NCBI GenBank assembly: GCA_035455085.1
Contig: DATIFV010000163.1
Coordinates: forward strand, 1 to 48,806
Length of the DNA stretch: 48,806 nt
Direction: 5' to 3'
Origin: Candidatus Methylomirabilota bacterium
GTDB lineage: Bacteria > Methylomirabilota > Methylomirabilia > Rokubacteriales > CSP1-6
How positions within the stretch are numbered: the first letter of the stretch is position 1; the number at the start of each line of letters is the position of its first letter. A model generated the notes under the pieces. The model ran no database searches. It was not told the DNA's origin and was given only the letters and a program-made list of their open reading frames with translations. Below are positions 8,607-33,014 of this stretch, in pieces. Both the position numbers and the translations under genes were made by a program.

Positions 8607-9001
8607 CGGCCGGGGCGTACCGCCAGCTCCTCGTAGGCGAAGGTGGGCCCGTCCCGGCGCAGGCCGCCCGGTGAGTAGCGCCGCTCGAGCAGCACGCGGC
8701 CGTCGAGCTCCACGCGCAGCACCGTGTCCGTGCGCCGGCCGGTCTGGGCCCGCTCCGGGCTGGTCGGCCGCATGTGGCGCGGTAGCTTCTCGATCTCCTC
8801 CATCGAGCGCGCGGGCCCGGCGTGCTCGAAGGCGGCCACGTGCTTGAAGGCGACCCGGATCATCGCGGCCTCCTGATCCGAGGCGGCCCACGGATACGCC
8901 GCGAGCGCCCCCAGGCCCCAGGAGACGGCGCCCAGCAGCAGGGCGAAGCCCGCGAGCCGGCCGGGCCGCGGGCGGCGATCCTCGACGGCGGGCGCGGTCA
9001 C
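8369..9001 (-). CDS. membrane-anchored hypothetical protein, last gene of the oxidase operon
   Basis: The GTG at 9001 overlaps the TGA of the upstream gene (GTGA). One N-terminal hydrophobic helix (LAGFALLLGAVSWGLGALAAY) followed by a beta-rich domain. The C-terminal ~30 codons look like tail. Confidence 0.55.
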   Translation of the reverse strand: MTAPAVEDRRPRPGRLAGFALLLGAVSWGLGALAAYPWAASDQEAAMIRVAFKHVAAFEHAGPARSMEEIEKLPRHMRPTSPERAQTGRRTDTVLRVELDGRVLLERRYSPGGLRRDGPTFAYEELAVRPGRYRLGVTLADGSADSAAGAAPRRWQLDEEVTIAPGQALLVEFSEDTGLIRRVRPAAAPAGSVAMSSSQRCTFSACSDRI

Positions 9002-10662
9002 CGGCCCGCCTCCTCTCGCTCCGGCGCGGACCGGCCCAGGTCGCGCTGGAAGTCGCCCACGTCGCGGAGGAGGCGGCCGACCTCGACCGGCGAGTACCAG
9101 CGCGCCCGCAGGCGTCCCTCCGGCGCGGCCTTCAGCGCGGGGAGACGCCGGCCGGTCAGCCGCTCGGCCAGCCACTGGCTGCCCTCGCGGAACGGGCAGT
9201 CCTCGGGAATGCAGCCGGCCACGAAGACGCCGGCGGCCCCGGCCTCTATCGTCTTCGTGATCATGTCCGGGTGGAGCATCCCGACGCAGGGGAGCCCCAT
9301 CACGGTGACGCCGGGCAGCGCGGCCAGCGTGCCGTCGGCGGCGAGCCGACCCGCGAGGCTCCGCATCATGCGGCAGGTGTAGACGAGCACGGGCGCCCGA
9401 CCTTCGCGGGCGCTCACGCCGCGCAGCCGGGCGGTCACCGCCTGGCCCAGCAGGCTCACCGGCTGATCCCCCAGCAGGATCCCGGCCGAATCGCAGGCGC
9501 CGACGCAGATGCCGCACCCCACGCACTTGGCGGGGTTCACCACCGCCACCTGCTTGTAGCGGGTGCCGTCGTGCCGCGGCACCATCACGATGGCCTCGTA
9601 GGGGCAGTCCTTCCAGCATCGCGTGCAGCCGGTGCACGCGATGTTCTCGACCCGGGCCCGCGCCGGTGCCGGCCCGCGCAGGACCCACGGCACCACGAGC
9701 GCGGCCGCCCCGCCGATCAGGAGCAGACCCCAGCCCCACCGGGGGTCCAGGCGCGTGAGCGGGAAGTAGAAGAAGTAGAACCAGTCGATGGGGATCGTCC
9801 CGGGCAGGCGCCCCAGGTCCGCCGGGGGGCCCGAGAGCGCCGGCCGCAGCACGCTCGCGATCAGCAGGGCGGCGCCGGTCACCGCGAGGACGATCCGCGG
9901 CGGCATGAAGCGCGCCCGGGAGAGGCGCATCACGTGCAGCCAGTAGGCCGCCCCGAGCAGCAGGGGGATCGTGACGTGGATGAAGAGCACGAGGAAGAAG
10001 AGGAAGTTCTGGATGCGCCCGGCGTCGAGGAAGGTGCGGACCAGCGGCTCGCCGAACACCGGCAGCACGTCGAGCAGCTTGGCGATGGTGACCGAGAGCA
10101 CCTGCGCCTGCATGTCCCAGACCAGCCAGTAGCCGGTGGCGCTCGTCACCCAGACGAGGCCGAGCAGGGTGAGCCCCGACACCCAGCCGATCCAGCGCGC
10201 TCCCCAGAACCGGTCGTTCAGGAACATCTTGAGGCCGTGCAGCGCGGCGGCCACGATCGCCGCGTCCGAGGCGTAGCGGTGGAGCGAGCGCATGAGGGCG
10301 CCGATGCCCCACGGCTGCGCCATGATCTCCTCGATGGAGCGGTGCGCCTCCTCGGTGCCCACGCGATAGAAGAGGAAGAGGTAGATGCCGGTCACCAGGG
10401 CCACCGCCAGCGAGAACACCGCGATGGTGCCGGTGTGGTAGAGCGGGTTGAGGGGCGCCGATACCAGCCGGTCGAGCAGCGCCTCGATCCACTGGTAGGC
10501 CGCTCCGGCCCGGAGGAGCGCGCGCCGGTGCAGGCGCTCGCGCGGGCCCGTGACCGGGAAGACGGGCGGGAGCGCGGCGACCGGCCCGAGCGGGAACGGC
10601 GGCGGCACCCCCGGCGAGCCGGACTGCACGCCGCTCGGCCCGTCGAGGACAGGGTCGTGCAC
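8998..10662 (-). CDS. fusion protein: di-haem cytochrome b (N-terminal domain) + 2x[4Fe-4S] ferredoxin + MvhD/FlpD-like domain
   Basis: The GTG at 10662 follows the Sco stop by 2 nt. Two His pairs are each separated by 13 residues (SLHRYASDAAIVAAALH; FIHVTIPLLLGAAYWLH). These are followed by CTGCTRCWKDCP and CVGCGICVGACD, then GLPCVGM...VAGCIPEDCPF. The exact start is uncertain. Confidence 0.8.
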   Translation of the reverse strand: MHDPVLDGPSGVQSGSPGVPPPFPLGPVAALPPVFPVTGPRERLHRRALLRAGAAYQWIEALLDRLVSAPLNPLYHTGTIAVFSLAVALVTGIYLFLFYRVGTEEAHRSIEEIMAQPWGIGALMRSLHRYASDAAIVAAALHGLKMFLNDRFWGARWIGWVSGLTLLGLVWVTSATGYWLVWDMQAQVLSVTIAKLLDVLPVFGEPLVRTFLDAGRIQNFLFFLVLFIHVTIPLLLGAAYWLHVMRLSRARFMPPRIVLAVTGAALLIASVLRPALSGPPADLGRLPGTIPIDWFYFFYFPLTRLDPRWGWGLLLIGGAAALVVPWVLRGPAPARARVENIACTGCTRCWKDCPYEAIVMVPRHDGTRYKQVAVVNPAKCVGCGICVGACDSAGILLGDQPVSLLGQAVTARLRGVSAREGRAPVLVYTCRMMRSLAGRLAADGTLAALPGVTVMGLPCVGMLHPDMITKTIEAGAAGVFVAGCIPEDCPFREGSQWLAERLTGRRLPALKAAPEGRLRARWYSPVEVGRLLRDVGDFQRDLGRSAPEREEAGR

Positions 10663-10664
10663 GC

Positions 10665-11561
10665 CTACCCCCGCTCCGCGAGCAGGCGCCCGAGTTCCTC
10701 GGCCTGGCGCTCCTCGGGATGGGCGAGGCCCCGATAGGTGAAGGCCAGGCGGCCGGCCCGATCGATGAAGGCCACGACGTTCTCGTGGGCGATCTCGCCG
10801 TCCGGCAGGGGCGCCCACTGCACCCGGTAGTCGCGGACGACCCGCCTCACCGTCGCGGGGTCGCCGCTCAGCAGATGCCAGCGCGGCCCGAGACCCCAGT
10901 GGGCGGCCGCCGCGGCCAGGGCGGCCGGCGTGTCCCGCTCTGGGTCGAGGCTCACCACCACGAAGGCGACCTCCGCCCGGGGCCGGCGGGCCTCGAGGGC
11001 CTTCAGGCGCTCGATCAGGAGCGGGCAGGAGGCGTGACAGCTCGCGTACGCGAACGTGAGCACCACCGGCCGGCCCCGGAAGCTCGCGAGCGAGACCGGC
11101 TGACCGCGATGGTCGACCAGACGGAGCTCCGGCGCCGGGGCCCCCTGGCGCAGCGGCGGCGGGAGCGTCGCCGGCGTGTAGCCCGTGCCGGAGGCCGAGA
11201 TCTCGCTGGTGGCGAGCAGCGAGGCGGCGAGGGCCATGAAGAGCAGCGGGGCCCCGATCGCGGCGAGCCGTCCCCCGCGCGCGCGGAGGAAGGCGCGCAG
11301 GTCGTCGCGATAGAACACGTACACCACCAGGGCGAAGAGGGGCGGCTGGAGCAGGGTCAGCAGGAGCGCGTCGAGACGGTAGTGCCGGGTCTCGGCGTTC
11401 CAGCCGAAGCATACGGTCAGGAGGGTATCGATCCACGGCGAGGATCCGCCCGCGAGCCCGGGGCCCAGCAGCAGGAAGGCGACGGTCCCGGCCCCCAGTC
11501 CGAAGATGGCCAGCACGAGGGCGGGCGCGAAGAGCCGGTGGGTCAGCAGGCCCGTCACCAT
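10665..11561 (-). CDS. SCO1/SenC copper chaperone with polytopic N-terminal membrane extension
   Basis: The ATG at 11561 overlaps the ctaB stop by 7 nt. Thioredoxin-fold motif FAYASCHASCP (CxxxC) plus a downstream His (IAHENV). About 120 N-terminal residues carry 3-4 hydrophobic segments. Confidence 0.8.
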   Translation of the reverse strand: MVTGLLTHRLFAPALVLAIFGLGAGTVAFLLLGPGLAGGSSPWIDTLLTVCFGWNAETRHYRLDALLLTLLQPPLFALVVYVFYRDDLRAFLRARGGRLAAIGAPLLFMALAASLLATSEISASGTGYTPATLPPPLRQGAPAPELRLVDHRGQPVSLASFRGRPVVLTFAYASCHASCPLLIERLKALEARRPRAEVAFVVVSLDPERDTPAALAAAAAHWGLGPRWHLLSGDPATVRRVVRDYRVQWAPLPDGEIAHENVVAFIDRAGRLAFTYRGLAHPEERQAEELGRLLAERG

Positions 11562-12424
11562 CTCCGGAGCCCCGCGTCCAGCACCACCCCCAGGAAGAGC
11601 AGCAGCAGGAACAGGTTCGAGGCGTGGAAGTTGGCCAGCGCGAGCCGCCGGTCCGTCGGCCGGCGGAGCAGCTCGAGGTTGCGGGCGAGGAGCAGGCCCC
11701 CGCCCGTCACCACGCCGACGAGCAGGTAGGGCCAGCCCAGCAGCCCCATCGCGAAGGGCAGCACGCTCGAGGCGAGCAGGCCCACCGTGTTCAGCAGGAT
11801 GCTGCGCGCGGTGCGGGCCTCGCCCTTCACCGCGGGCAGCATCGGGATCCGCGCGCCCGCGTAGTCGCTCTTGTAGGCAATGGCGAGCGACCAGAAGTGC
11901 GACGGGCTCCAGAAGAAGAGCACCGCCGCGAAGATGACCGGCGGCAGGCACAGCTCGGGACGGGCCAGCGCCCCGCCCGCGAGTACCGCGAAGGAGCCGG
12001 CGAGGCCCCCGATGACCACGTTGAGCCACGAGCGGCGCTTGAGCCAGATCGTGTAGATCACCACGTAGGTGAAGGCGCCGAGGAAGAGGTGCAGGGCCAC
12101 CAGGCGGTTCAGCCGCCACAGGGCCACGCTCACCGCGAGCGCGACGAGGCCGAGCCCCAGCGCCACGACGTGCCAGCCGTGGCGGATCTTTCCCGAGGGC
12201 AGGGGGCGCCGCGCGGTCCGGGGCATCCGGGCATCGAGATCGCGGTCGAGGAAGTGGTTGAGAGCCCCCGCGCCACCCGCCGCCATCACGGTCACCGCGA
12301 AGAGCAGCCCGAGCGACGGCAGCGACAGCCCCGCGGGCGCGGTGGCCAAGTAGCCCAGCACCGCGGCCATGCCGATGAAGGTTCCGACCCGGAGCTTGAG
12401 CGACTCGACGTAGGCGATGATCAT
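11555..12424 (-). CDS. ctaB: protohaem IX farnesyltransferase (haem O synthase)
   Basis: ATGA overlap with the upstream gene. UbiA-family motif NHFLDRDLDARMPRTARRPLPSG. 289 aa and polytopic. Confidence 0.9.
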   Translation of the reverse strand: MIIAYVESLKLRVGTFIGMAAVLGYLATAPAGLSLPSLGLLFAVTVMAAGGAGALNHFLDRDLDARMPRTARRPLPSGKIRHGWHVVALGLGLVALAVSVALWRLNRLVALHLFLGAFTYVVIYTIWLKRRSWLNVVIGGLAGSFAVLAGGALARPELCLPPVIFAAVLFFWSPSHFWSLAIAYKSDYAGARIPMLPAVKGEARTARSILLNTVGLLASSVLPFAMGLLGWPYLLVGVVTGGGLLLARNLELLRRPTDRRLALANFHASNLFLLLLFLGVVLDAGLRRW

Positions 12425-13848
12425 CGCGCACCTCCCCGTCGCAGGAGCGGGAGGCCCATGTTGATCACGAAGGCGAGCCCGCCCACGATGGCCAGCACCG
12501 AGCCCGCGCCCATCAGGTTCATCCCGATGAGCGCCTGCGCGTTGGCCCAGCTGAAGCCGAAGGTCTTGCGCGGCGCCCCGTGGCCGCCCGCCCAGTGCAT
12601 GCCGGCCATGATGCCGAGCAGCCCCAGCCCGTAGAGGTACGGCTGCCAGCGCGCCCAGCGCTCGCTCAGCGGGTGCCGGCCGGTCAGGCCCAGCAGCAGA
12701 GGGGTCAGGGCCATGTAGGAGAGGGTCACCGCGCCCACCATGCCGTGGTAGTGGGCGGGTACCCGCGTGTCCTGGGTGAAGCCGATGAGGCCCATCACGC
12801 CGCCGATCGCGAAGAGCGCGAACGAGACCACGGTGCCGCCGAAGAGGGGGCTGCCCCACGGCAGCGGCCGGGGCGCGGCGGCCACCACCGCCACCGCCAT
12901 GAAGAGCAGGGGCACCGCGCCCGCTCCGAGCCCGCCGAACGTCAGGATGGTGATCAGGTGATTGACGAGCAGCTCCTCGGGGCGCCACAGGAGATAGGCC
13001 GCGCCGGAGGCGACCGCGAACGGCGCCAGGATGGCCAGCAGCAGGCGCACGACGCGCCGGGCCGACGGGGCCATCCCGAGCGCCACCGCGAGCGCCACCA
13101 GCCAGCCCGTGGCCATGCCGGCCACGTGGAGGAACTGGAGCACGTGGCCGCCGCCCCAGACCACCGCCCGGAGCGTGTAGCCGAACGGCACCGCAGGGTC
13201 CGCGGCCGCGGCCGCGCGCATGAAGGCCGCGGCGGCCACGAGGACGGCGAGCGCCGCCACCGCCATCGCGAGGCCCTCGGGCGATTCGACCGCCACTCGC
13301 CCGCGCTCGCGCCGCAAGAGCACCGCCGCGGCTCCGCCCAGGTAGGCGGCGGCCTGGATGCCGACGCCGGCCCCGAGCAGGACGAGGCCGGTCCAGAAGA
13401 ACGGATGGTCGATCACCGGCAGGTAATCGTTCAGGTACGGCTGGCCCGAGGCGAGGAAGGCGGGCACCGCCATGGCCGCCGACCCGACCACCGACAGCCC
13501 GAGGGCGGCCCACGAGGCGGGGGCGCTCAGCGGATAGCCCGAGCGCCAGGCCACGTACACCCAGAGCACGCCCGCGAAGGCGACGAACCAGACCGTGAAG
13601 GCGAACGTCACGTGCGAGGTGAGCGCGAGACGGAACTGGGCGGCGTCGAAGAGGGTGTGGACCACCGGGGTGCGGGCGAAGGCGGCCAGCATGGCGAAGA
13701 AGCCCGCCACCACCAGCGAGCCCAGCGCCAGCCCGAGCCAGCCCACGATCAGGCGGCGCACGGGGCTCGGTACCGGCGAGGCCGGGTCGGCGCGCCGGCC
13801 GCGGTCGCGCGGCCGGCGATCGAGGAGGAAGGTCGCGTCGGGATTCAT
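12421..13848 (-). CDS. degenerate haem-copper oxidase subunit-I-like membrane protein (CuB His pair absent)
   Basis: 475 aa, starting 10 nt after the subunit I stop with a GGGGGTG RBS. Aligns by eye to the adjacent subunit I: the helix II His (TSHVTFAF), helix VI His (WGGGHVLQF) and helix X AHYHGMVGAV are retained. HHLLVDPQL of subunit I corresponds to AYLLWRPEEL here. Confidence 0.7.
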   Translation of the reverse strand: MNPDATFLLDRRPRDRGRRADPASPVPSPVRRLIVGWLGLALGSLVVAGFFAMLAAFARTPVVHTLFDAAQFRLALTSHVTFAFTVWFVAFAGVLWVYVAWRSGYPLSAPASWAALGLSVVGSAAMAVPAFLASGQPYLNDYLPVIDHPFFWTGLVLLGAGVGIQAAAYLGGAAAVLLRRERGRVAVESPEGLAMAVAALAVLVAAAAFMRAAAAADPAVPFGYTLRAVVWGGGHVLQFLHVAGMATGWLVALAVALGMAPSARRVVRLLLAILAPFAVASGAAYLLWRPEELLVNHLITILTFGGLGAGAVPLLFMAVAVVAAAPRPLPWGSPLFGGTVVSFALFAIGGVMGLIGFTQDTRVPAHYHGMVGAVTLSYMALTPLLLGLTGRHPLSERWARWQPYLYGLGLLGIMAGMHWAGGHGAPRKTFGFSWANAQALIGMNLMGAGSVLAIVGGLAFVINMGLPLLRRGGAR

Positions 13849-13858: not shown

Positions 13859-15532
13859 CTACTTGATGATCCAGATGGCGGCCAGCCATTTCCAGTTGAG
13901 GAAGTAGTAGATGACGAAGGACGCCAGGAACACGAAGACGAGCACGAGGGTCCCCTTGATGGGCACGTGCTGCCCGCGGTCCTGGGGCAGCGCGGCCAGC
14001 GGCACCGCGCCCGCGGTGTCCGGCACCCGCCGCCCGAAGAGCACCGAGCCCACCGTGATCACCACGTAGAGGGCGCCGCCGGCCAGCGCGAAGAGCCCGC
14101 CCACGCCCATGATGCCGAGGAAGGCGAAGGCGGCCGCTTCCACCGGCGGCTGGAAGATCGACGAGGTGAACTGCACGTCCCAGTGCCGCCGCGGGATCGC
14201 GTAGGACCCGGCGGTGGTCATGCCGCCGATGAAGATGGTCATGCCGATGGCGAAGAGGTAGATCTGGGTCGTGGCGAGCTTCACCGAGATCAGATGCCGC
14301 CGGAAGATGAGCGGCACCACGTAGTACGTGAGTCCCATGAACGCGATGGTGGTGCCGGCGACCACGGTGGCGTGGAAGTGGCCGGTGATGCGCAGCGTGT
14401 TGTGGGAGATGATGTTGACCTGCTCGGCGCCGAAGGTGACGCCGGTGATGCCGCCGATGAAGCCGAAGAGCACCAGCGACAGGGCCAGCGCCGCGAAGCC
14501 CGGATTGCCCCACGGGGCCTTGGCCAGCCACTCGAAGAGCCCCTTGGTGAGCCCCTTCTTCCGCTGTGCGACCTCCACCGACGCGGGCACCGTCATCCCG
14601 TGGACCATGCTCGCGAGCACGGCCAGGTACATGCCGTAGCTGGTGTTCCAGATCTTCCACGCCGGCGAGAGCTGGGGATCCACGAGCAGATGGTGGGCGG
14701 AGGCCAGGTTGATGAAGAGGATGTAGAGGAGGAAGGCGGATCGGCAGACCTTCTCGTTCACCGGGGTCGCCCCCACCGTGAGGGTGGCCAGGAGGTACCA
14801 GATCGTGACCATGGCGCTCACGTTGATCTGCTGGGAGCTGTGCCCGAGGCCCCACCAGACCAGGCGGTAGATGCCGGGATCGATGGTCTGGATGATCCCC
14901 AGCGACCAGAGCCACGTGGGGACATAAATGATGGCCCCGTGGGCCAGGGTGACCACCGCGATGATGCCCGCGGTGGCGGCCCCGAAGGTCACCAGCGGGA
15001 TCGAGCCCTCGTACGTCCGCTCGGCCCGCGCGACCACCAGGCTCGCGAAGAAGTTGCAGACGCCGACGAGGGCGCCGACCGCGAACAGGATCCAGCCCAG
15101 GTAGAAGTAGGACACCGCCTGGAGGGGGGCGTAGGAGGTCATCATCACGTCGGCGCGGCCCGCGAGGATCGCGACGTCGATGAGCACCGAGCCTGCCACC
15201 ATGAGCGCGAACCCGAGCCAGCCCACCCGCGGCCAGGCGAGGCGGCTTCCCAGCACGATGGGCCCGGCAAAGTAGAGCACCGCGATCTCGAAGAAGATGA
15301 TCCAGAAGATCAGCATGTTGATGCCGTGGAAGGTCAGCGCTCGGTAGAAGCTCGTCGGGTCCAGCAGGTGGACGGCGGGCCAGCGGGTCAGCAGCACGAG
15401 AATTGCCGCGATGCCGCCGAAGAGGATGGAGAACACGCCGGCCACCGCGTGGACCTTGATGAGGCGCTCGGCGTGGTTGTGGACTCGGAGGCCGGTCTGG
15501 GCGCACGTTCTGAAGACGGCTTCGGTTGCCAT
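13859..15532 (-). CDS. haem-copper oxidase superfamily subunit I, B-family (ba3)-like, lacking the cross-linked Tyr
   Basis: 557 aa. AGGAGG RBS overlaps the subunit II stop. Metal ligands: LTFHGINML, WWGLGHSSQQ, ASAHHLLVDP, ITGHFHATV. Collinear with my recollection of Thermus CbaA, including LFEWLAKAPWGNPGF. Confidence 0.9.
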   Translation of the reverse strand: MATEAVFRTCAQTGLRVHNHAERLIKVHAVAGVFSILFGGIAAILVLLTRWPAVHLLDPTSFYRALTFHGINMLIFWIIFFEIAVLYFAGPIVLGSRLAWPRVGWLGFALMVAGSVLIDVAILAGRADVMMTSYAPLQAVSYFYLGWILFAVGALVGVCNFFASLVVARAERTYEGSIPLVTFGAATAGIIAVVTLAHGAIIYVPTWLWSLGIIQTIDPGIYRLVWWGLGHSSQQINVSAMVTIWYLLATLTVGATPVNEKVCRSAFLLYILFINLASAHHLLVDPQLSPAWKIWNTSYGMYLAVLASMVHGMTVPASVEVAQRKKGLTKGLFEWLAKAPWGNPGFAALALSLVLFGFIGGITGVTFGAEQVNIISHNTLRITGHFHATVVAGTTIAFMGLTYYVVPLIFRRHLISVKLATTQIYLFAIGMTIFIGGMTTAGSYAIPRRHWDVQFTSSIFQPPVEAAAFAFLGIMGVGGLFALAGGALYVVITVGSVLFGRRVPDTAGAVPLAALPQDRGQHVPIKGTLVLVFVFLASFVIYYFLNWKWLAAIWIIK

Positions 15533-15541
15533 GGGGGCCTC

Positions 15542-16069
15542 CTACTCGACCGTGATCTTGCCCACCATCTGGTGGTGCCCGATCCCGCAGAACTCGTTGC
15601 AGACCACGAAGACCTCGCCGCTCGTCGTCGGGGTGATGGTGAGCACGTACTCGTAGCCGGGCAGGACCATGAAGTTGAGGTTCAGGGGGAAGAGCGAGAA
15701 GCCGTGGACGAGGTCCATGGAGGACAGGTGCAGGCGGTAGGTCTCGCCCTTCTTGAGCTTGAGTGCCGGGTACCACTGCCAGAGCCTCCCCAGCATGTAG
15801 ACGTCCTGCGCGGGATCGGGGGCGATCACCGGCAGCCCCTTCTCTTCCCCGACCTTCGGTCCGGACTCGACGAAGGCCTCCACCTTCTCCATGTACTGCG
15901 CCGGGGTGGTCCGGTAGGTCTCGAAGGACGGGTTCTGGCCGCCCTTGAGATGCCAGAGCGGCATCATCGCGAAGAGGATGAGGCACCACAGGAGCGCGAT
16001 CGCGAGCCAGATCTTCTCGCTCGCGTCGACTTTCTTCCACCACACGCCCTTGAGAGTCTGCAGGCTCAT
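15542..16069 (-). CDS. haem-copper oxidase subunit II, short single-TM cupredoxin with complete CuA site
   Basis: 175 aa. DLVHGFSL plus CNEFCGIGHHQM (C-x3-C-x3-H-x2-M). No cytochrome c domain. Confidence 0.9.
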   Translation of the reverse strand: MSLQTLKGVWWKKVDASEKIWLAIALLWCLILFAMMPLWHLKGGQNPSFETYRTTPAQYMEKVEAFVESGPKVGEEKGLPVIAPDPAQDVYMLGRLWQWYPALKLKKGETYRLHLSSMDLVHGFSLFPLNLNFMVLPGYEYVLTITPTTSGEVFVVCNEFCGIGHHQMVGKITVE

Positions 16070-16078
16070 GGCGGTCTC

Positions 16079-16240
16079 CTACCTCGCAACCGGGATGGTG
16101 GCGATCTCGAACAGGCCCCAGATCGTGTAGAAGACCACCGGGACCGTGAGCCCGAGCACCAGCAGCAGGAAGATGTTGTCGAAGAACACCTGGGCCAGCG
16201 GCACCCGGTCGTCGTCCTTGGCGGTCTCTTTGTCGGCCAT
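16079..16240 (-). CDS. 53-aa single-TM protein, putative oxidase subunit IIa-like; not in ORF track
   Basis: ATG at 16240 preceded by GGAGGGG. MADKETAKDDDRVPLAQVFFDNIFLLLVLGLTVPVVFYTIWGLFEIATIPVAR. The stop lies 9 nt before the subunit II ATG. Confidence 0.6.
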   Translation of the reverse strand: MADKETAKDDDRVPLAQVFFDNIFLLLVLGLTVPVVFYTIWGLFEIATIPVAR

Positions 16241-16317: not shown

Positions 16318-16335
16318 CTATGACCTGGGTCATAG
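16318..16335. promoter_or_regulatory. 18-bp palindrome CTATGACCTGGGTCATAG, putative Crp/Fnr-type operator of the oxidase operon
   Basis: Perfect 8+2+8 palindrome. Its centre is ~86 nt upstream of the ATG at 16240. TACGCT (TAnnnT) lies 21 nt downstream on the - strand, a class-II-like geometry. Confidence 0.6.
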
Positions 16336-16340: not shown

Positions 16341-16392
16341 CAAGAAACCCTCTCCTCCGCGAGGGGGAGAGGGCGGGGTGAGGGGGAGGGGG
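16341..16392. repeat. REP-like element copy A: hairpin CCCTCTCCTCC-GCGA-GGGGGAGAGGG followed by CGGGGTGAGGGGGAGGGGG
   Basis: Read directly. On the - strand the hairpin is followed by TTTCTTG, so it probably also terminates nirK. Confidence 0.7.
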
Positions 16393-16413: not shown

Positions 16414-17478
16414 CTAGTGCCCGCCCGTCCCGTGGGTGCCCGGCACCAGCGTCCGGAAGATGCCGGGCTGCTCGGCGCCCGCCACCTCCAGGACCCCGAG
16501 GGCGCCCTTCTCCATCGCCCGCACGATGCTGTGGTCCACGAGCAGGAAGCGCCCCGGCACCTGCACCGTCATCTCCACGATGGCCGCGCCGCCCGCCGGG
16601 ATCAGGGTGGTCTGCACGTTCTGGGCCGGAGCGCCGGCGCCCAGCGCGCCCTCGGTGTAGACGTGGTCGAAGATCTCGCCGATCACGTGGAAGGAGGAGA
16701 TGAGGTTGGGCCCGCCGTTGCCCACGAAGAGCCGGACCTGCTCGCCGACCTTCGCGTGGATCGCCCCCTCGCCCGCGAGCGCGCCCATCTTGCCGTTGAA
16801 CACCACGTACTCGGGCCGCTCCGCGGTCAGCTTGGCCGGATCGAGCGGCTGGAGCCCCGGCGCGAGCGTCCTGCCCTTGGTATAGAACTCGCCCTGCATG
16901 ACGTAGTACTCGCGGTCCACGCGGGGCAGCCCCTTCTCGGGCTCGACGAGGATCAGCCCGTACATGCCGTTGGCGATGTGCGCGGGCACGCTCGGGGTCG
17001 CGCAGTGATAGACGTAGAGCCCGGGGTTCAGCGCCTTGAACTCGAAGGCGCCTTCCTGGCCCGGCCCCAGCTGGGTCACCGCCGCGCCGCCGCCCGGCCC
17101 GGTCACCGCGTGCAGGTCGATCGAGTGCGGGTGCATGCTCTTCTCCGCGTTCCTGAGGCGGATCTGCACGACGTCACCCACGCGCACCCGGACGAAGGGA
17201 CCCGGCACCGTGCCGCCGAAGGTCCAGAACGTGTACCGCACGCCGTCGGCGAGGGTGCCCGTGACCTCGGTGGTCTCGAGATCGACGATCACCTTCGCGT
17301 TGCCGGGGCGGTCCACCGGCGGCGGCACGAGCGGGGCCGAGGTGAGGATGGCCTTCACTTCCGGGAGCGCGGCGGGCTCGGCGGCCTTGTCGCGGGCCTG
17401 GCTCTGCCAGATCATCGCGCCCGCCACCAGCAGCCCGGCCGTTGCCAGCGTCGTCATCGTGGTCAACCCCCGTCTCAT
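16414..17478 (-). CDS. nirK: copper-containing nitrite reductase
   Basis: 354 aa with a signal-like N-terminus. Type-2 Cu motif [14 protein letters not shown] and type-1 Cu motif [29 protein letters not shown]. Confidence 0.92.
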
Positions 17479-17599: not shown

Positions 17600-17617
17600 G
17601 TATGACGCGGCTCATAG
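17600..17617. promoter_or_regulatory. palindrome gTATGACGCGGcTCATAG, putative Crp/Fnr-type operator upstream of nirK
   Basis: Same 7-N4-7 motif with a mismatch at the outermost position and one inside the right arm. Centre ~130 nt upstream of the nirK ATG. CATCCT lies 21 nt downstream. Confidence 0.5.
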
Positions 17618-17685: not shown

Positions 17686-17973
17686 CTAGGGGCGGGGGTC
17701 CAGGGCGATGCGGTCGGGGGTCCAGGGCGGCTCGAAGGTGATGGCCACCTCGACGGCCTCGACACCCGGGATCCGCGCGACCGCCTGCCGCACCCACCCG
17801 GCCATGGAGTCGTGGAGAGGGCAGCCCGGCGCGGTCAGGGTCATGGTGACCTGCACGCGGCCGCCGTCGATCTGCACGCCGTAGATCAGCCCGAGATCCA
17901 CGATGGACATCCCGAGCTCGGGATCGAAGACGTCCCGGAGCGCCTGCGTGACCTGCCCGTGGGTGACGCTCAC
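17686..17973 (-). CDS. DUF59 (SufT/MIP18-like) metal-sulfur cluster assembly factor
   Basis: The GTG overlaps the radical SAM stop (GTGA). DPELGMSIVDLGLIY...LTAPGCPLHD...PPWTPDRI. Confidence 0.8.
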   Translation of the reverse strand: MSVTHGQVTQALRDVFDPELGMSIVDLGLIYGVQIDGGRVQVTMTLTAPGCPLHDSMAGWVRQAVARIPGVEAVEVAITFEPPWTPDRIALDPRP

Positions 17974-19115
17974 GCGTGGACCTCCCGCACGACGGGCTCG
18001 TGGGCGCACCCCGGATCCTCCGCCAGCGGGTTTCCGGTGAGCGCGTAGGCCCGCGCGCGGCTGCCCCCGCAGCGCTCGCGCCACTCGCAGCGCCCGCAGC
18101 GGCCCCCGAGCCGCGCCGGATCGCGCAGGGCCACGAAGAGCGGGTGCTCCCGGTAGACCGCGACGAGGTCGTCTCGCCGGACATTGCCGACCGGCAGCGG
18201 CAGGAACCCGCTCGGGCAGATGTCGCCGCGATGGTCCACGAAGACGAAGCCGTTGCCATCGGTGACCGCGCGCCCGGCGCGCATGCTTGGCCGCCCGCCG
18301 GATGTCCGAGACGGTTGTCCGCCGCTGGGGGAGTGCGGGGGCCATGTCTGGGCCCCCGCAGCTGAAGAGCTTGAAGAAGTAAACCAGTCTGCCCTCGCCG
18401 CCTCCGCGAGGACACGGTGGTAATGCGGGGCCTCCGTCGTCTTGATCCCGAAGGGGACGCGGCCCTGGAGGTCGGCCGCCCAGTGCAGCGCCTCCTCGAT
18501 CTCGCCGGCGGTGAGGCCCTGGTCGACCTGGGCGCGCCCTACCGGGATGAGGAAGAAGAGCGCCCAGAGGAGCACGCCGAAGCCGGTCACCTGGTTCACC
18601 AGTGCGGGCAGCTCCTTCACGGTCTGGCGGCAGACGGTCGTGTTGACCTGCAGCCCGAGCCCGAGCGCCCGCGCCCGCTCGATGATCCGGAGGGTGTAAC
18701 GGTGGGAGCCCCGCACGCCCCGGAAGGCGTCGTGGGTCTCCGGCCCGGCGCCGTCGAGGCTCACCGCGAGGCGGGCCAGCCCCGCATCCCGCAGGGCGCG
18801 GAGCTTGCCCTCGGTCACGGCGGCGGTTGCGCTCGGGGTCAGCGACACCATCAGGCCCCGGCGCGTGCCGTGCGCGACCAGCTCGGCGATGTCGGGACGC
18901 CGCAGCGGGTCTCCACCGGTCAGGACCACGAGCGGCGGCGGATCGCCGAAGGCGGCGATGCGGTCGAGCAGCGCCTTGCCCTCGTCGGTGGTGAGCTCGC
19001 CCGGATCGCGGCGCGGGATGGCCGCGGCCCGGCAGTGCACGCAGGCCAGCGCGCACGCCCGCGTCGTCTCCCAGATCGCGATGAAGGGGCTCCACGCGAA
19101 CACCGATGTCTCCAT
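17970..19115 (-). CDS. radical SAM/SPASM enzyme, NirJ/AhbD-like
   Basis: WETTRACALACVHCRA (CxxxCxxC), LTGGDPLRRPD, and a C-terminal SPASM Cys cluster CGRCEWRERCGGSRARAY. The ATG at 19115 lies 1 nt after the upstream stop. An alternative GTG start is at 19124. Confidence 0.85.
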   Translation of the reverse strand: METSVFAWSPFIAIWETTRACALACVHCRAAAIPRRDPGELTTDEGKALLDRIAAFGDPPPLVVLTGGDPLRRPDIAELVAHGTRRGLMVSLTPSATAAVTEGKLRALRDAGLARLAVSLDGAGPETHDAFRGVRGSHRYTLRIIERARALGLGLQVNTTVCRQTVKELPALVNQVTGFGVLLWALFFLIPVGRAQVDQGLTAGEIEEALHWAADLQGRVPFGIKTTEAPHYHRVLAEAARADWFTSSSSSAAGAQTWPPHSPSGGQPSRTSGGRPSMRAGRAVTDGNGFVFVDHRGDICPSGFLPLPVGNVRRDDLVAVYREHPLFVALRDPARLGGRCGRCEWRERCGGSRARAYALTGNPLAEDPGCAHEPVVREVHA

Positions 19116-19116
19116 G

Positions 19117-20430
19117 TCACCCACGCGCCGCCAGCGTGTGTCCCGCCTCCTCGCGGGTCGGTCGTCCGCCAGCCGAGAGCCGCCTCAGCACCCGCGCGAG
19201 CGCTCCCGCGAACGCGAGCGCGCCCAGCGCGAGCACGCCGCCGGCCATGCGGATCAGGACGGCGTCGCCGACGAGGACGGTGACGGCCAGCAGCGCCGTT
19301 CCGCCGGTGAGCAGCACGTAGGCCAGCCCCTCCGCCCGCGGCCAGGAGATCTGCGCCAAGGTCGGCACCGGCTCGCGGCCCGCGCGCGGGCTGTACGCGC
19401 GGTACCAGACCAGGAACGGGACGATCTTGAGCATCATCCCGGCGATGGTGAGGGAGACCCAGCCGCCCAGCGTCACGACGGCGTAGGCGAGCGCCACGCG
19501 GGGCCCGCCGAGGAGATCCGCGGCCATCGCCACCCCGAGAACGGCGGCGGGGGCGAGGAACGCGGCGGCGGTGAGGACGAAGCGGAGCCCCCAGTCGAGA
19601 CCGGGCCGCTTTCGCCGCCACGCCATCTCTGCCATCCAGGCCGCGTGGGCTCCCGCTGCCACCGCCACCGCGAGCGCGCCGATCACGAGGAGCCCCGGCA
19701 CCCCGAGGAGGCCCAGCACCACCGCCGGCCCGCCGGCCACGAGGCCCCAGAGCTGCAGGGCGGAGTGCGCCGGCCGGGGCGCGGGGGCGAGGAAGAACAT
19801 CGGATACACGCGTGCGGACACGGCGGCGATCATCGGCGCCACCCAGCCGAGGAGGGCCAGCTGCACGTGAGCGTGCAGGGTCGGGAAGAGCTCCCCCGGG
19901 AGGAACGGCCAGATGCGGTTGACCGCCAGGGCCAGGCCGAACACGGTCGTCAGGGCGAGCCCGCCGTAGCCGACCACGACGAGCCGCGCGGTGAACGTCC
20001 AGCGGTCGAAGCCCTGCAGGCTCATCCCGACGTTGACCAGGTGCGCGACGATGCCCACCGCCAGCATCCCCGCCGCGGACGCCAGCCCGGGCCAGGTGCC
20101 CAGGTAGAAGTGGGCGACCATGCCGATCACCGCGACCGCCAGGACGGCGAGCTCCCAGCGGGCGAGCCGCTCGCTCCAGATCGGCCGCTCGAGCACGATC
20201 GGGACGAGCTGGTAGCTGGCGCCCAGGATCGCGATCGTGATCCAGCCGAGCGTGACGGTGTGGGTGAGCGCGAGCAGTCGCGGGTGGTAGTAGTGGCCTG
20301 CCAGCTCGGGGCCGAGCCAGGTCACCCCGAGCGCGGCCGTCAGGAAGGCCGCCGCGGAGCAGACCAGGTAGGCCAGCGGGACGAGGGGCGAGGGGCCGCT
20401 TCCGGGCCGCGGCGGCACCGGCATGCTCAT
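19117..20430 (-). CDS. polytopic (about 12 TM) His-motif membrane protein, NnrS-like
   Basis: 437 aa. ATGA overlap with the upstream gene. Repeated module LTHTVTLGW...ASYQLVP / TLHAHVQLALLGW...ARVYPMF. The family assignment is from memory of the NnrS HAHE motif and is not verified. Confidence 0.6.
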   Translation of the reverse strand: MSMPVPPRPGSGPSPLVPLAYLVCSAAAFLTAALGVTWLGPELAGHYYHPRLLALTHTVTLGWITIAILGASYQLVPIVLERPIWSERLARWELAVLAVAVIGMVAHFYLGTWPGLASAAGMLAVGIVAHLVNVGMSLQGFDRWTFTARLVVVGYGGLALTTVFGLALAVNRIWPFLPGELFPTLHAHVQLALLGWVAPMIAAVSARVYPMFFLAPAPRPAHSALQLWGLVAGGPAVVLGLLGVPGLLVIGALAVAVAAGAHAAWMAEMAWRRKRPGLDWGLRFVLTAAAFLAPAAVLGVAMAADLLGGPRVALAYAVVTLGGWVSLTIAGMMLKIVPFLVWYRAYSPRAGREPVPTLAQISWPRAEGLAYVLLTGGTALLAVTVLVGDAVLIRMAGGVLALGALAFAGALARVLRRLSAGGRPTREEAGHTLAARG

Positions 20431-21269: not shown

Positions 21270-21340
21270 GCGGGGGTCTTTCCCTCGAGCGCGCCGAGCA
21301 GGGTGACGGCGACCGGGGCGTCGCTGCACTCGTGAGCCAT
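21266..21340 (-). CDS. 24-codon upstream ORF (MAHECSDAPVAVTLLGALEGKTPA) coupled to the DUF1858 gene; not in ORF track
   Basis: ATG at 21340 with GAGGAGG 6 nt upstream. Its TGA overlaps the ATG at 21269 (ATGA). Confidence 0.45.
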   Translation of the reverse strand: MAHECSDAPVAVTLLGALEGKTPA

Positions 21341-21385: not shown

Positions 21386-21403
21386 CTATGACGTCGGTCA
21401 TAG
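21386..21403. promoter_or_regulatory. palindrome CTATGACGTCGGTCATAG, putative Crp/Fnr-type operator of the DUF1858 operon
   Basis: Perfect 7-N4-7 palindrome. TAGGGT lies 20 nt downstream on the - strand, followed by the RBS of the upstream ORF. Confidence 0.6.
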
Positions 21404-22077: not shown

Positions 22078-22779
22078 ATGCCTGCCAAGGAGCTCGCCGC
22101 TTTCCTGGGCCGGAACCCGGTGTTCGCGGGCATTCCGGCGCGCGAGATCGAGTCGCTGGCGCGCGTGGCGCTGGAGGAGGCGCATCGGGCGCGCGCCTAC
22201 GTCTTCATGGAGGGTGACGCCGCGCGCTGGTTCTACGTGGTGCGATCGGGTCACGTCAAGATCGTGCGCCATTCCAAGACCGGCAAGGACGTGGTGCTCG
22301 AGCTGCTGGGGCCCGGCGAGGTCTTCGGGGGGGTGGCGGTGATCGAGCGACGCCCGTATCCGGCGAGCGCGCAGGCCACCGAGCCCACGGTGGTGCTGAA
22401 GGTCCCGGCGGATCCGGTGATCGCGCTCGCCGAGCGGCACCCGACGTTCATCAAGGAGATGGCGCTGATGATCGGCCGGCGCCTGCGCGCCGCGCACGAC
22501 TCCGTCGCCTCGCTCGCGGTGGATCCGGTCGAGGCCCGCCTCGCCGCGACCTTGCTCCGGCTGGCGACGCGCGAGGGGACCAAGAGCGACCGGGGCGTGA
22601 CCCTGCCGTTTCATCTCACCCGGCAGAGCCTGGCCGACATGACCGGCACCACCGTGGAGAGCGCGATCCGGATCCTGAGCCGCTGGCTCCGGGACGGCCT
22701 GCTCGCGGAGGACGGAGGCCGCCTCGTCCTCGCCGACTGGGAAGGATTGCGGGCGCTGACCGAGGGCGAGGTCGACTAG
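22078..22779 (+). CDS. Crp/Fnr-family transcriptional regulator without any Cys
   Basis: ATG at 22078 inside ORF 21595..22779. cNMP-like beta-barrel (FMEGDAARWFYVVRSGHVKI) and HTH LTRQSLADMTGTTVESAIRILSRW. Confidence 0.88.
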   Translation: MPAKELAAFLGRNPVFAGIPAREIESLARVALEEAHRARAYVFMEGDAARWFYVVRSGHVKIVRHSKTGKDVVLELLGPGEVFGGVAVIERRPYPASAQATEPTVVLKVPADPVIALAERHPTFIKEMALMIGRRLRAAHDSVASLAVDPVEARLAATLLRLATREGTKSDRGVTLPFHLTRQSLADMTGTTVESAIRILSRWLRDGLLAEDGGRLVLADWEGLRALTEGEVD

Positions 22780-22780
22780 G

Positions 22781-23224
22781 ATGACTCCGCTCATCCGGCG
22801 CTACATCAAGACGAGCTTCCTCTTCCTGCTCGTCGGGCTCCTGCTCGGGGCCTACATCGTGGTCGGCCAGTTCGTCCTCGAGGAGTACCCGCCCCGTCTG
22901 CTCGTCACGGCCCACGCCCACCTGCTGCTGGTCGGCTTCATGCTGATGATGGTCATGGGGGTCGCCACCTGGATGTTCCCGCGCCCGGCGCGCGACGACA
23001 CCCGGTACCGGCCCGAGCTGGCCGAGGCGGTCTACTGGGTGATGACGACCGCCACCGCGCTGCGGGCGGCGGCCGAGATCAGCGTGGGGCTCGCCGGGAT
23101 GCTCGGACTGCGGTGGCTCATCGCGCTGGGCGGGCTGGGGCAGCTGGCCGGGACCGCGCTCTTCGTGCTGAACATGTGGCGGCGCGTGCGCATGCCGCCC
23201 GCGGCGGCGCCCCCCGCCCGCTGA
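22781..23224 (+). CDS. 4-TM His-motif membrane protein, single-module paralogue of the 12-TM protein
   Basis: The ATG lies 1 nt after the crp-family stop. PPRLLVTAHAHLLLVGFMLMMVMGVATWMFP parallels HPRLLALTHTVTLGWITIAILGASYQLVP of the 437-aa protein. Confidence 0.7.
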   Translation: MTPLIRRYIKTSFLFLLVGLLLGAYIVVGQFVLEEYPPRLLVTAHAHLLLVGFMLMMVMGVATWMFPRPARDDTRYRPELAEAVYWVMTTATALRAAAEISVGLAGMLGLRWLIALGGLGQLAGTALFVLNMWRRVRMPPAAAPPAR

Positions 23225-25484: not shown

Positions 25485-25514
25485 GCGGGCGCGCCCGATA
25501 GACTGGCCCCCGCC

Positions 25515-29223: not shown

Positions 29224-29298
29224 GCCGGGGACGCTAGGGGGACGATCCGTGGGCTGTCAAGCGGTCTCCGGGCGCGATGTTAGACTGCGACTGTCGCG

Positions 29299-32616: not shown

Positions 32617-32621
32617 CTCCC

Positions 32622-32993: not shown

Positions 32994-33014
32994 GGCGCCG
33001 GTGTCACCAGCCGC

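What the first reader, a model, noticed from the sequence alone, without database searches (positions are those of the whole stretch)
13859..16240. ba3-like haem-copper enzyme without the cross-linked tyrosine, encoded next to nirK: candidate non-canonical NO reductase
Subunit I is collinear with B-family oxidases, and all six metal-ligand histidines are present. The helix VI motif is GHSSQQ where ba3 has GHPIVY, so the His-Tyr cofactor is missing. In my alignment from memory, helix VIII positions corresponding to the ba3 K-analogue channel (S309/T312/T315) are A-or-S/V/M. Subunit II keeps a full CuA site. The operon lies directly downstream of nirK and shares an Fnr-like operator with it. Loss of the active-site Tyr and proton-channel residues is the hallmark of HCO-derived NO reductases. 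As far as I recall, the described sNOR, eNOR and bNOR families branch with B-type oxidases, and sNOR clusters include senC. I cannot assign this enzyme to one of those families from memory.
Basis: partly seen in the sequence, partly recalled or inferred. Interest (0 to 1): 0.75.

Follow-up and report, generated by a model that had tools for sequence, protein, structure and literature searches.

The report
eNOR-type nitric oxide reductase beside nirK
This is a nitric oxide reductase of the already described eNOR family, a relative of ba3-type oxidases with glutamine in place of the catalytic tyrosine, encoded next to a copper nitrite reductase in a Rokubacteria-like genome; it is a new member of a known enzyme family, not a new kind of enzyme.

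Summary
The core observation holds. Window 13859-16240 (minus strand) encodes a 53-aa membrane protein, a CuA subunit II and a 557-aa haem-copper subunit I. All six metal-ligand histidines are kept, and GHSSQQ stands where ba3 has GHPIVY (Tyr237 to Gln235).

One part is wrong. The ba3 K-channel positions are not lost: S309/T312/T315 align to S308/H311/T314, and Y248 and Glu15 of subunit II are also kept.

Gln at the Tyr position is the published diagnostic of the eNOR family. The Rhodothermus marinus eNOR reduces NO and not O2 (Murali et al. 2024). The window protein sits in a clade with 99% bootstrap support in which Gln is invariant (85 of 85 sequences). That clade includes the Natronomonas pharaonis protein (42% identity). 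It is not an sNOR.

The genes form a seven-gene operon: small subunit, II, I, a haem-copper-like paralog, haem O synthase, SCO, and a cyt b/Fe-S fusion. The operon has its own TATGAC-N4-GTCATA box. The same box lies upstream of nirK and of a third operon, and a Cys-free CRP/FNR regulator is encoded nearby.

Verdict: a new member of a known kind, of modest interest. The accessory genes are the less explored part.

The parts
13859..15532 (-). eNOR subunit I (557 aa). Haem-copper catalytic subunit with H69, H231, H280, H281, H385, H387; Gln235 in place of the cross-linked Tyr; K-channel analogue Y246, S308, H311, T314.
   Evidence: Pfam COX1 212 bits. ba3 is the best PDB match, E 1e-40. Column analysis of 85 relatives. 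Clade with 99% bootstrap support that includes the N. pharaonis protein.
15542..16069 (-). eNOR subunit II (175 aa). One N-terminal TM helix and a cupredoxin domain with a complete CuA site. E18 aligns with Glu15 at the ba3 K-channel entrance.
   Evidence: Pfam COX2. Alignment to ba3 subunit II, E 1e-14, with H/C/C/H/M ligands and the EK(G/I)W motif aligned. Present in 84 of 84 related loci.
16079..16240 (-). 53-aa single-TM protein, first gene of the operon. It occupies the position that cbaD (subunit IIa) has in the ba3 operon.
   Evidence: ATG start with a GGAGG-like RBS. Homologs lie immediately upstream of subunit II in 66 of 84 loci. The comparison with cbaD rests on my own knowledge.
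16319..16334 (.). Operator-like palindrome TATGACCTGGGTCATA, about 80-95 bp upstream of the small ORF.
   Evidence: Boxes in the equivalent position in related loci: TATGAY-N4-RTCATA in Rokubacteria/Nitrospirae, TTGAY-N4-RTCAA in Proteobacteria.
16348..16365 (-). Terminator-like hairpin followed by a T-run, between the nirK stop codon and the eNOR operator.
   Evidence: A consensus match only.
16414..17478 (-). Copper-containing nitrite reductase NirK (354 aa), the source of NO.
   Evidence: TIGR02376 equivalog, 340.5 bits against a cut-off of 296.3. Pfam Cu-oxidase_2/3.
17601..17616 (.). Second copy of the palindrome (TATGACGCGGCTCATA), about 125-140 bp upstream of the nirK start.
12421..13848 (-). 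475-aa haem-copper-superfamily paralog. It keeps both haem histidines and one CuB-type His but lacks the helix VII His-His pair. Function unknown.
   Evidence: Pfam COX1 41.6 bits. hhalign against eNOR: probability 99.95%, E 5e-38. Invariant H79/H235/H366/H368 in 125 homologs. ATGA start/stop overlap with ctaB. One homolog is fused to haem O synthase.
11555..12424 (-). Haem O synthase (CtaB/CyoE), for haem cofactor supply.
   Evidence: TIGR01473, 251 bits against a cut-off of 210. Adjacent to eNOR genes in 33 of 84 loci.
10665..11561 (-). SCO1/SenC-family copper chaperone (CxxxC), probably for CuA assembly.
   Evidence: Pfam SCO1-SenC 77.6 bits. Linked in 73 of 84 loci.
8998..10662 (-). Fusion of a cytochrome b N-terminal domain, two [4Fe-4S] ferredoxin motifs and an FlpD/MvhD-like domain. 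Last gene of the operon. The start codon is approximate.
   Evidence: Pfam Cytochrome_B, Fer4_7 and FlpD. Linked in 71 of 84 loci across phyla. Start candidates.
22078..22779 (+). CRP/FNR-family regulator (233 aa) without any cysteine, so Dnr/NnrR-like rather than FNR. Candidate binder of the palindromes.
   Evidence: Pfam cNMP_binding and HTH_Crp_2. Sequence.
21387..21402 (.). Third copy of the palindrome (TATGACGTCGGTCATA), upstream of the DUF1858/DUF2249 - membrane protein - radical SAM - DUF59 genes that run into nirK.

Best explanation

How it most likely works:
- NirK, encoded just upstream, makes NO from nitrite in the periplasm.
- Electrons enter the reductase through the CuA centre of subunit II. 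They pass to the low-spin haem (H69/H387) and then to the binuclear site. That site is the high-spin haem (H385) plus a non-haem metal held by H231/H280/H281. There two NO are reduced to N2O.
- Gln235 replaces the cross-linked Tyr that O2 reductases need as their fourth electron donor. The enzyme is therefore not expected to reduce O2.
- A retained K-channel analogue (E18 of subunit II, Y246, S308, H311, T314) can bring substrate protons from the cytoplasm. This would make the reaction electrogenic.
- The operon also supplies cofactor and assembly functions: haem O synthase and an SCO copper chaperone.
- nirK and the eNOR operon are separate transcription units. Both carry the same TATGAC-N4-GTCATA box, probably bound by the neighbouring Cys-free CRP/FNR-family regulator.

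Shown here: gene content, ligands, motif conservation, clade membership, synteny and the repeated box.
Inferred: NO reductase activity (by homology to the R. marinus enzyme), proton uptake through the channel, the identity of the non-haem metal and of the haems, and the regulator-box pairing.
For: - Tyr237 to Gln235 with all six His kept. Gln is invariant in 85 of 85 relatives, as are Q234 and N237.
- Gln at this position is the stated diagnostic of eNOR (PMC8756737, section 3.3 and Table A4).
- R. marinus eNOR reduces NO and not O2. The paper describes eNOR as having a B-family-like K-channel and a CuA subunit II (PMC11214002, sections 5, 6, 8).
- K-channel positions are conserved.
- The Natronomonas pharaonis protein P0354 has GHGSQQIN and is 42% identical over the full length, E 3e-133. 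Natronomonas is a genus in which eNOR was previously described (PMC8756737).
- In the NJ tree the Gln clade has 99% bootstrap support and the canonical ba3-like group is separate at 100%.
- Two Thermus members have Lys for the low-spin haem His. The eNOR paper reports this variation for some eNORs.
- Denitrification context: nirK is adjacent here. On Thermus plasmids the homolog lies beside nirK, nirS and an Rrf2 regulator.
- Regulation: CRP/FNR-type boxes lie upstream of the operon here and in 36 of 83 related loci.
Against: - No activity data exist for this protein or any close relative. The characterised R. marinus sequence (Rmar_0161) could not be retrieved, so the link to it runs through the motif, the family description and the N. 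pharaonis member.
- The tree is a simple NJ tree without curated references for sNOR, bNOR, gNOR or nNOR.
- R. marinus eNOR uses haem As, and many eNOR operons carry ctaA. No ctaA was found among the scanned ORFs of this 48.8-kb window. The haem type here is unknown.
- nirK is adjacent in only 6 of 84 related loci, so the nirK link is not a family-wide feature.
Confidence: 0.85

Rival explanations
1. It is an sNOR, the family found in ammonia oxidisers as norSY-senC-orf1. The presence of senC in the operon suggests this.
For: - An SCO/SenC gene is in the operon, and an extra membrane-protein gene follows subunit I.
- AOB sNOR clusters are written norSY-senC-orf1 (PMC4940428).
Against: - The published active-site residue of sNOR is Asn, the same as bNOR. 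Here it is Gln (PMC8756737 Table A4).
- sNOR is described as lacking S309 (PMC11214002, section 8). Here S308 is conserved in 84 of 85 sequences.
- No named ammonia oxidiser appears among the best 80 of at least 498 genomes with relatives.
- SCO genes accompany CuA enzymes generally.
Confidence: 0.03
2. It is an O2 reductase of the B family that works without the His-Tyr cofactor, or with a compensating Tyr elsewhere.
For: - It is collinear with ba3 and keeps the K-channel and CuA.
- The nearest non-Gln relatives (38-46% identity) keep Tyr in GHxxQY.
Against: - Gln is invariant in the clade.
- There is no Tyr at the C-family position, six residues before the His-His pair (I274). The conserved Y270 is also present in a Tyr-keeping relative (P0124), so it is not a compensation (sequences).
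- The characterised eNOR showed no O2 reduction (PMC11214002, section 6).
- The operon carries a CRP/FNR-type box shared with nirK.
Confidence: 0.04
3. It does reduce NO, but serves detoxification rather than energy-conserving respiration. Alternatively, it acts on another small N-oxide or related substrate.
For: - The neighbouring genes (DUF1858/DUF2249, radical SAM, DUF59) look like a stress or maturation set.
- No nar, nap or nosZ gene is in the window.
- The turnover of the R. marinus enzyme is low (PMC11214002).
Against: - The retained proton channel and CuA input fit a respiratory, electrogenic enzyme.
- The rest of the genome is unseen, so the absence of nar and nosZ from one window says little.
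Confidence: 0.08

Closest known systems
eNOR family of haem-copper nitric oxide reductases (Hemp & Gennis 2008; Murali et al. 2024, PMC11214002). The characterised member is Rhodothermus marinus Rmar_0161. The Magnetospirillum 'cytochrome a1-like' haemoprotein also belongs.
   Same: - Subunit I derived from the B family, with Gln in place of the cross-linked Tyr.
- CuA subunit II.
- A conserved K-channel analogue that includes S309.
- A haem O synthase gene in the operon.
- The His/Lys low-spin haem variant occurs in some clade members (Thermus).
- Broad phylogenetic spread.
   Different: - No ctaA in the window.
- An extra haem-copper-like paralog lies between subunit I and ctaB.
- Host lineage is Rokubacteria/Methylomirabilota.
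- T312 is His in this clade.
- Activity, haem type and the non-haem metal are untested here.
Thermus thermophilus cytochrome ba3 oxidase (cbaDBA; PDB 1EHK/1XME)
   Same: - Closest solved structure (E 1e-40 for subunit I, 1e-14 for subunit II).
- Same gene order: small subunit, II, I.
- Same six His ligands, CuA ligands, Y248, S309, T315 and Glu15(II).
   Different: - Tyr237 is Gln, Val236 is Gln, Trp239 is Asn, Tyr244 is Val, Thr312 is His.
- Only about 30% identity.
- ba3 is an O2 reductase.
sNOR (norSY-senC-orf1 of ammonia oxidisers) and bNOR (Bacillus azotoformans CuANOR)
   Same: - Derived from the B family, with CuA subunit II and loss of the Tyr cofactor.
- senC is linked in sNOR clusters.
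- bNOR has a K-like channel and is electrogenic.
   Different: - Published active-site residue is Asn, not Gln.
- sNOR lacks S309.
- bNOR is restricted to Bacillales.
cNOR/qNOR (NorCB, NorZ)
   Same: - Same proposed reaction: 2 NO to N2O at a haem/non-haem metal site held by three His.
- No Tyr cofactor.
   Different: [quoted passage not shown]
- They have a haem c or quinol input instead of CuA, a Glu ligand to FeB, and no conserved cytoplasmic proton channel.

Membership tests
eNOR | Subunit I is a haem-copper superfamily member derived from, or related to, the B family | tested here: met
   Pfam COX1. The best PDB relatives are ba3-type enzymes, E 1e-40. The tree places it next to Tyr-keeping B-like proteins and apart from canonical ba3.
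eNOR | Gln replaces the cross-linked active-site Tyr (the diagnostic substitution) | tested here: met
   GHSSQQ against GHPIVY, Q235 at Y237. Present in 85 of 85 clade members. Definition taken from PMC8756737 (section 3.3, Table A4).
eNOR | All three histidines of the non-haem metal site and both haem ligands are retained | tested here: met
   H231, H280, H281, H385, H69, H387.
eNOR | CuA-containing cupredoxin subunit II encoded immediately upstream | tested here: met
   H...C-x3-C-x3-H-x2-M aligned to the ba3 CuA ligands. Gene at 16069..15542.
eNOR | Conserved K-channel-like residues resembling the B family, including S309 | tested here: met
   S308 in 84 of 85, H311 in 84 of 85, T314 in 77 of 85, Y246 in 85 of 85. 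E18 of subunit II aligns to Glu15. Criterion from PMC11214002, section 8.
eNOR | Groups phylogenetically with described eNOR sequences | tested here: inconclusive
   It groups at 99% NJ bootstrap with the N. pharaonis Gln-type protein and the Thermus and Thermomicrobium homologs. The R. marinus and Magnetospirillum reference sequences could not be obtained, and the tree method is simple.
eNOR | NO reductase activity without O2 reductase activity | not testable with these tools
   Known only for the R. marinus enzyme (PMC11214002, section 6).
eNOR | Haem As in both haem sites; ctaA and ctaB often in the operon | tested here: inconclusive
   ctaB is present (TIGR01473). No ctaA/COX15 was detected among the scanned ORFs of the window. 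Haem type cannot be read from sequence.
sNOR | Asn as the active-site residue (the same active site as bNOR) | tested here: not met
   Gln is at the Tyr position. N237 is also present in the Tyr-keeping relatives, so it is not the substituting residue.
sNOR | S309 missing, with a conserved Glu elsewhere forming a different channel | tested here: not met
   S308 is conserved in 84 of 85.
B-family O2 reductase (ba3 type) | His-Tyr cross-linked cofactor (GHPxVY) | tested here: not met
   Tyr is absent, and no Tyr sits at the alternative C-family position (sequence).
gNOR | One active-site His replaced by Asp; subunit II lacks the CuA ligands | tested here: not met
   All His are present and the CuA site is complete.

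The most novel reading that the evidence does not exclude
eNOR may not be a simple two-subunit, cytochrome-c-fed enzyme. It may be the core of a larger conserved module.

- A cyt b / 2x[4Fe-4S] / MvhD-like fusion protein is linked in 71 of 84 loci across many phyla.
- A 53-aa subunit is linked in 66 of 84 loci.
- In Rokubacteria there is also a haem-copper-derived two-haem paralog without a CuB site, sometimes fused to haem O synthase.
- Together these could form a dedicated electron-input or cofactor-maturation system.

If so, NO reduction would be coupled to the quinone pool or to cytoplasmic redox carriers in a way not described for any NOR.
Probability: 0.2. Interest if true: 0.6.

Novelty: new member of a known kind. 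Interest (0 to 1): 0.3.

Why it matters
- The gene pair would be annotated as 'cytochrome c oxidase' or 'cbb3-type oxidase' by standard pipelines. The NCBI and JGI names of its homologs show this.
- A Rokubacteria genome carrying nirK plus this operon would therefore be scored as a nitrite reducer without NO reductase. Recognising it as eNOR makes the organism a likely N2O producer in soils and groundwater.
- The retained proton channel makes the family relevant to whether NO reduction can conserve energy.
- None of this is new in principle. The family, its diagnostic Gln and its activity are published.
- What may add something is the strongly conserved accessory gene set and the lineage-specific variant of the FNR/Dnr box.

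Tried and rejected
- Canonical FNR box TTGA-N6-TCAA: 0 matches in the window. It was replaced by the observed ATGA-N6-TCAT palindromes. The fifth match (14229) lies inside subunit I. The match at 22781 is the start codon region of a gene and lacks the TA flanks, so both were discounted.
- sNOR assignment: rejected on the Asn and S309 criteria.
- NCBIfam has no specific model. Subunit I scores far below the CtaD/QoxB/CyoB cut-offs.
- No solved eNOR, sNOR or bNOR structure is in the PDB copy. Only ba3-type and A-family chains match.
- Attempts to obtain the R. marinus reference failed.
  - The genome-contig scan returned only the 80 closest relatives, at 54-81% identity.
  - The plasmid search gave Defluviimonas, Thermus and Thermomicrobium homologs but no Rhodothermus or Magnetospirillum.
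  - The Thermus accession WP_015717644.1, used in a published eNOR tree, was not among the records inspected.
- The supplementary data of Murali et al. are not held.
- Literature searches for eNOR in Rokubacteria or Accumulibacter gave nothing beyond the two versions of that paper.
- The exact subunit I sequence is not on record in the contig index.
- The 437-aa membrane protein (19117-20430) and the 154-aa ORF (22760-23224) gave only weak COX1-like signals. They were not interpreted.
- No structure prediction was run. Sequence-level homology to ba3 was already decisive, and model coordinates cannot be inspected.
Full report
**What is at the coordinates**

The window has about 72% G+C. On the minus strand between 16240 and 13859 there are three tightly spaced genes, each with an ATG start and a GGAGG-like ribosome-binding site.
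- A 53-aa single-helix protein lies at 16240..16079.
- A 175-aa subunit II lies at 16069..15542 (Pfam COX2).
- A 557-aa subunit I lies at 15532..13859 (Pfam COX1, 212 bits).

The closest solved structures are the two large subunits of Thermus thermophilus cytochrome ba3. Subunit I matches with E about 1e-40 over residues 38-513. Subunit II matches with E 1e-14.

**Checking the observation**

The HMMER alignment to ba3 and an independent MAFFT alignment agree on the metal ligands. The MAFFT alignment holds the window protein, 82 related genomic copies, two database representatives of the Gln type and 14 more distant representatives.
- All six histidines are present: H69, H231, H280, H281, H385 and H387.
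- GHSSQQ aligns with GHPIVY, so the cross-linked Tyr237 is Gln235.
- In subunit II the CuA ligands align residue for residue with those of ba3 (VHGF; CNEFCGIGHHQM).

- ba3 S309, T312 and T315 correspond to S308, H311 and T314.
- These are conserved in 84, 84 and 77 of 85 relatives.
- Y248 (Y246) is invariant.
- Glu15 at the channel entrance in subunit II aligns with E18.
- Only Y244 (Val/Ile) and S261 (Asn/Ser) differ.

So the tyrosine is lost but the proton pathway is kept.

**Which family**

Published summaries give the residue that characterises each B-derived NOR family: Gln for eNOR, Asn for sNOR and bNOR, Asp for gNOR (PMC8756737, Table A4). The same paper defines putative eNORs by Gln at the Tyr column (its section 3.3).

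Murali et al. (PMC11214002) describe the families as follows.
- eNOR has a CuA subunit II and a K-channel closely resembling that of the B family.
- sNOR lacks S309.
- Some eNORs replace one low-spin haem histidine by lysine.
- The R. marinus eNOR reduces NO (0.68 per second) and does not reduce O2.

The window protein meets each sequence criterion. In the 85-sequence set Gln at the Tyr position, the preceding Gln and Asn two residues later are all invariant (GHxxQQxN). The two Thermus plasmid copies carry GHFK, the His-to-Lys variant.

A search started from a 43%-identical representative, P0123 (Natrarchaeobius), recovered the Natronomonas pharaonis protein P0354. P0354 has GHGSQQIN and is 42% identical to the window protein over its full length, E 3e-133. 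PMC8756737 names Natronomonas as a genus in which eNOR was previously described.

A neighbour-joining tree with 200 bootstraps gave three results.
- The Gln clade has 99% support. It holds the window, Rokubacteria, Gemmatimonadota, Proteobacteria, Thermus, Thermomicrobium and haloarchaea.
- Canonical ba3-like oxidases form a separate group at 100%.
- The Gln clade arises next to a grade of proteins that keep Tyr in GHxxQY (38-46% identity).

I therefore assign the enzyme to eNOR. I could not obtain the R. marinus sequence itself, so the link to the characterised enzyme is through the family definition, not a direct comparison.

**Distribution**

The family is large.
- Thousands of database proteins match.
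- At least 498 species genomes encode a relative. The best 80 share 54-81% identity. They come from Rokubacteria, Nitrospirae, Gemmatimonadota, Myxococcota, Bacteroidota, Alpha-, Beta- and Gammaproteobacteria, Leptospiraceae and others.
- The closest named relatives of the window protein are Methylomirabilota/Rokubacteria.

**Surroundings and operon**

Downstream of subunit I, with overlaps or gaps of a few bases, four more genes follow.
- A 475-aa haem-copper-like paralog lies at 13848..12421.
- Haem O synthase lies at 12424..11555 (TIGR01473 above cut-off), with an ATGA start/stop overlap.
- An SCO/SenC protein lies at 11561..10665.
- A fusion of a cytochrome b N-terminal domain, two [4Fe-4S] motifs and an FlpD/MvhD-like domain lies at about 10662..8998.

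In 84 related loci the linked genes were counted as follows.

| Gene | Loci with the gene (of 84) |
|---|---|
| Subunit II | 84 |
| SCO | 73 |
| cyt b/Fe-S fusion | 71 |
| Small ORF | 66 |
| Haem O synthase | 33 |
| 475-aa paralog | 11 |
| Radical SAM | 11 |
| CRP-family gene | 11 |
| nirK | 6 |

Upstream, nirK (17478..16414) passes the equivalog cut-off for copper nitrite reductase. On T. thermophilus plasmids the homologous genes lie beside nirK, nirS, a TIGR04053 radical SAM gene and an Rrf2 regulator. That is the same kind of company as here. The window carries a radical SAM gene, a DUF59 gene and a DUF1858/DUF2249 gene upstream of nirK. No nar, nos or ctaA gene was found among the scanned ORFs of the window.

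**Regulation**

There is no canonical TTGA-N6-TCAA site. The 16-bp palindrome TATGAC-N4-G(G/C)TCATA occurs three times.
- One copy lies upstream of the eNOR operon (16319-16334).
- One lies upstream of nirK (17601-17616).
- One lies upstream of the DUF1858/DUF2249 operon (21387-21402).

The core ATGA-N6-TCAT occurs 5 times against 0.16 expected. A terminator-like hairpin lies between nirK and the eNOR box, so these look like two co-regulated units.

A 233-aa CRP/FNR-family protein without any cysteine is encoded at 22078..22779. The lack of cysteine argues for a Dnr/NnrR-like sensor rather than an Fe-S FNR. That inference rests on my own knowledge of these regulators.

In related loci the same position upstream of the small ORF holds TATGAY-N4-RTCATA in Rokubacteria- and Nitrospirae-type genomes. 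It holds canonical TTGAY-N4-RTCAA boxes in proteobacterial ones. In all, 36 of 83 loci have a TGA-N6-TCA core within 350 bp.

**Mechanism**

The most likely mechanism has these steps.
- NirK produces NO.
- Electrons enter through CuA, pass the low-spin haem and reach the haem/non-haem metal centre.
- At that centre two NO are coupled and reduced to N2O.
- Without the Tyr cofactor the enzyme lacks the fourth electron needed for O-O bond cleavage. This fits the absence of O2 reduction in the R. marinus enzyme.
- The retained channel allows substrate protons to come from the cytoplasm, which would make the reaction electrogenic. The eNOR paper proposes this for eNOR, and it has been shown for bNOR.

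Inferred, not shown: activity, metal identity (Fe or Cu), haem type, electron donor, channel function and regulator binding.

**Rivals**

- sNOR is excluded by the Gln/Asn criterion and the S309 criterion.
- An O2 reductase with a compensating Tyr is unlikely. No Tyr sits at the C-family position (I274). The conserved Y270 also occurs in a Tyr-keeping relative (P0124).
- A detoxifying role, or a different substrate, cannot be excluded from sequence.

**Novelty**

The enzyme family, its diagnostic substitution, its channel and its activity are published. eNOR is already part of reference sets used in denitrification surveys (PMC12569097, Methods). The finding is a new member in a Rokubacteria-like genome with a tidy nirK linkage.

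Two things looked less explored. One is the strongly conserved accessory set, above all the cyt b/Fe-S/MvhD fusion. The other is the 475-aa paralog.
- The paralog keeps both haem ligands and one CuB-type His but lacks the His-His pair.
- One homolog of it is fused to haem O synthase.

I could not check whether the supplementary material of the eNOR paper already covers these.

Noticed in passing
window 12421-13848 (-): A 475-aa haem-copper-superfamily paralog sits inside the operon. hhalign against eNOR gives probability 99.95%. In 125 homologs only four His are invariant (H79, H235, H366, H368), and the helix VII His-His pair is missing. So it probably binds two haems with no complete CuB/FeB site. 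Its stop codon overlaps the ctaB start (ATGA). One homolog (P0495, 774 aa) is fused to a haem O synthase domain. Most named homologs are from Rokubacteria. It is present in 11 of 84 related loci.
   Followed up: partly
window 8998-10662 (-): A fusion protein has a cytochrome b N-terminal domain, further TM helices, two [4Fe-4S] motifs and an FlpD/MvhD-like domain. It is linked to eNOR genes in 71 of 84 loci from many phyla. In Gemmatimonadota it lies upstream on the opposite strand. Its role is unknown: electron input, quinol link or something else.
   Followed up: partly
window 16079-16240 (-): A 53-aa single-TM ORF is conserved in front of subunit II in 66 of 84 loci. It has the same position as cbaD (subunit IIa) in the Thermus ba3 operon, so it is probably a third subunit.
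   Followed up: partly
window 16319-16334, 17601-17616, 21387-21402; loci L004-L083 upstream of the small ORF: The operator type tracks lineage. Rokubacteria-, Nitrospirae- and Methylomirabilota-type loci carry TATGAY-N4-RTCATA. Proteobacterial eNOR loci carry canonical TTGAY-N4-RTCAA. The Gemmatimonadota loci have no such box within 350 bp. The window regulator's recognition helix reads TVESAIRIL, where E. coli FNR has TVETISRLL (recalled, not tested).
   Followed up: partly
window 17686-21329 (-): Upstream of nirK, on the same strand, lie four genes: a DUF1858+DUF2249 protein, a 437-aa membrane protein with a weak COX1-like signal (22 bits, below cut-off), a radical SAM protein and a DUF59 Fe-S assembly protein. 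A TIGR04053 radical SAM gene also sits beside nirK and nirS next to the Thermus eNOR copies.
   Followed up: partly
window 22781-23224 (+): A short ORF right after the CRP-family gene matches only the N-terminal third of Pfam COX1 (36 bits). Homologs appear near eNOR/nirK in two Gemmatimonadota loci (L044, L051). Function unknown.
   Followed up: no
L002:8983-10665 and L084:8001-9686 (Thermus thermophilus plasmids): The Thermus eNOR-clade proteins have GHFK instead of GHFH, so the low-spin haem ligand His is replaced by Lys. They lie next to nirK/nirS, an Rrf2 regulator and a DUF542 gene on megaplasmids.
   Followed up: partly
proteins P0177, P0183, P0211 (from; not in the window): These distant haem-copper relatives (32-33% identity) keep the Tyr of the GHxxxY position. 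They have Tyr-His in place of the helix VII His-His pair, and Tyr-x-His in place of the helix X His-x-His. That is an unusual ligand set and I did not identify it.
   Followed up: no
proteins P0124, P0127, P0128, P0142 (not in the window): The nearest non-eNOR relatives (38-46% identity) share GHxxQ-Y-xN, H at ba3 T312 and E82, but keep the Tyr. They look like the O2-reducing sister grade from which the Gln clade arose.
   Followed up: partly
window 45775-47413: A tRNA-Asp gene (45775-45852) is followed by an IS3-like transposase pair (rve integrase 46164-47159, HTH_Tnp_1 47081-47413) near the window end.
   Followed up: no
window 23235-25523 (-) and 29284-33632: Signalling genes flank the N-oxide island: a DUF4118-PAS-histidine kinase-receiver hybrid, an adenylate/guanylate cyclase-AAA-TPR protein of 1110 aa, and two receiver-domain proteins. 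No link to the eNOR genes was tested.
   Followed up: no
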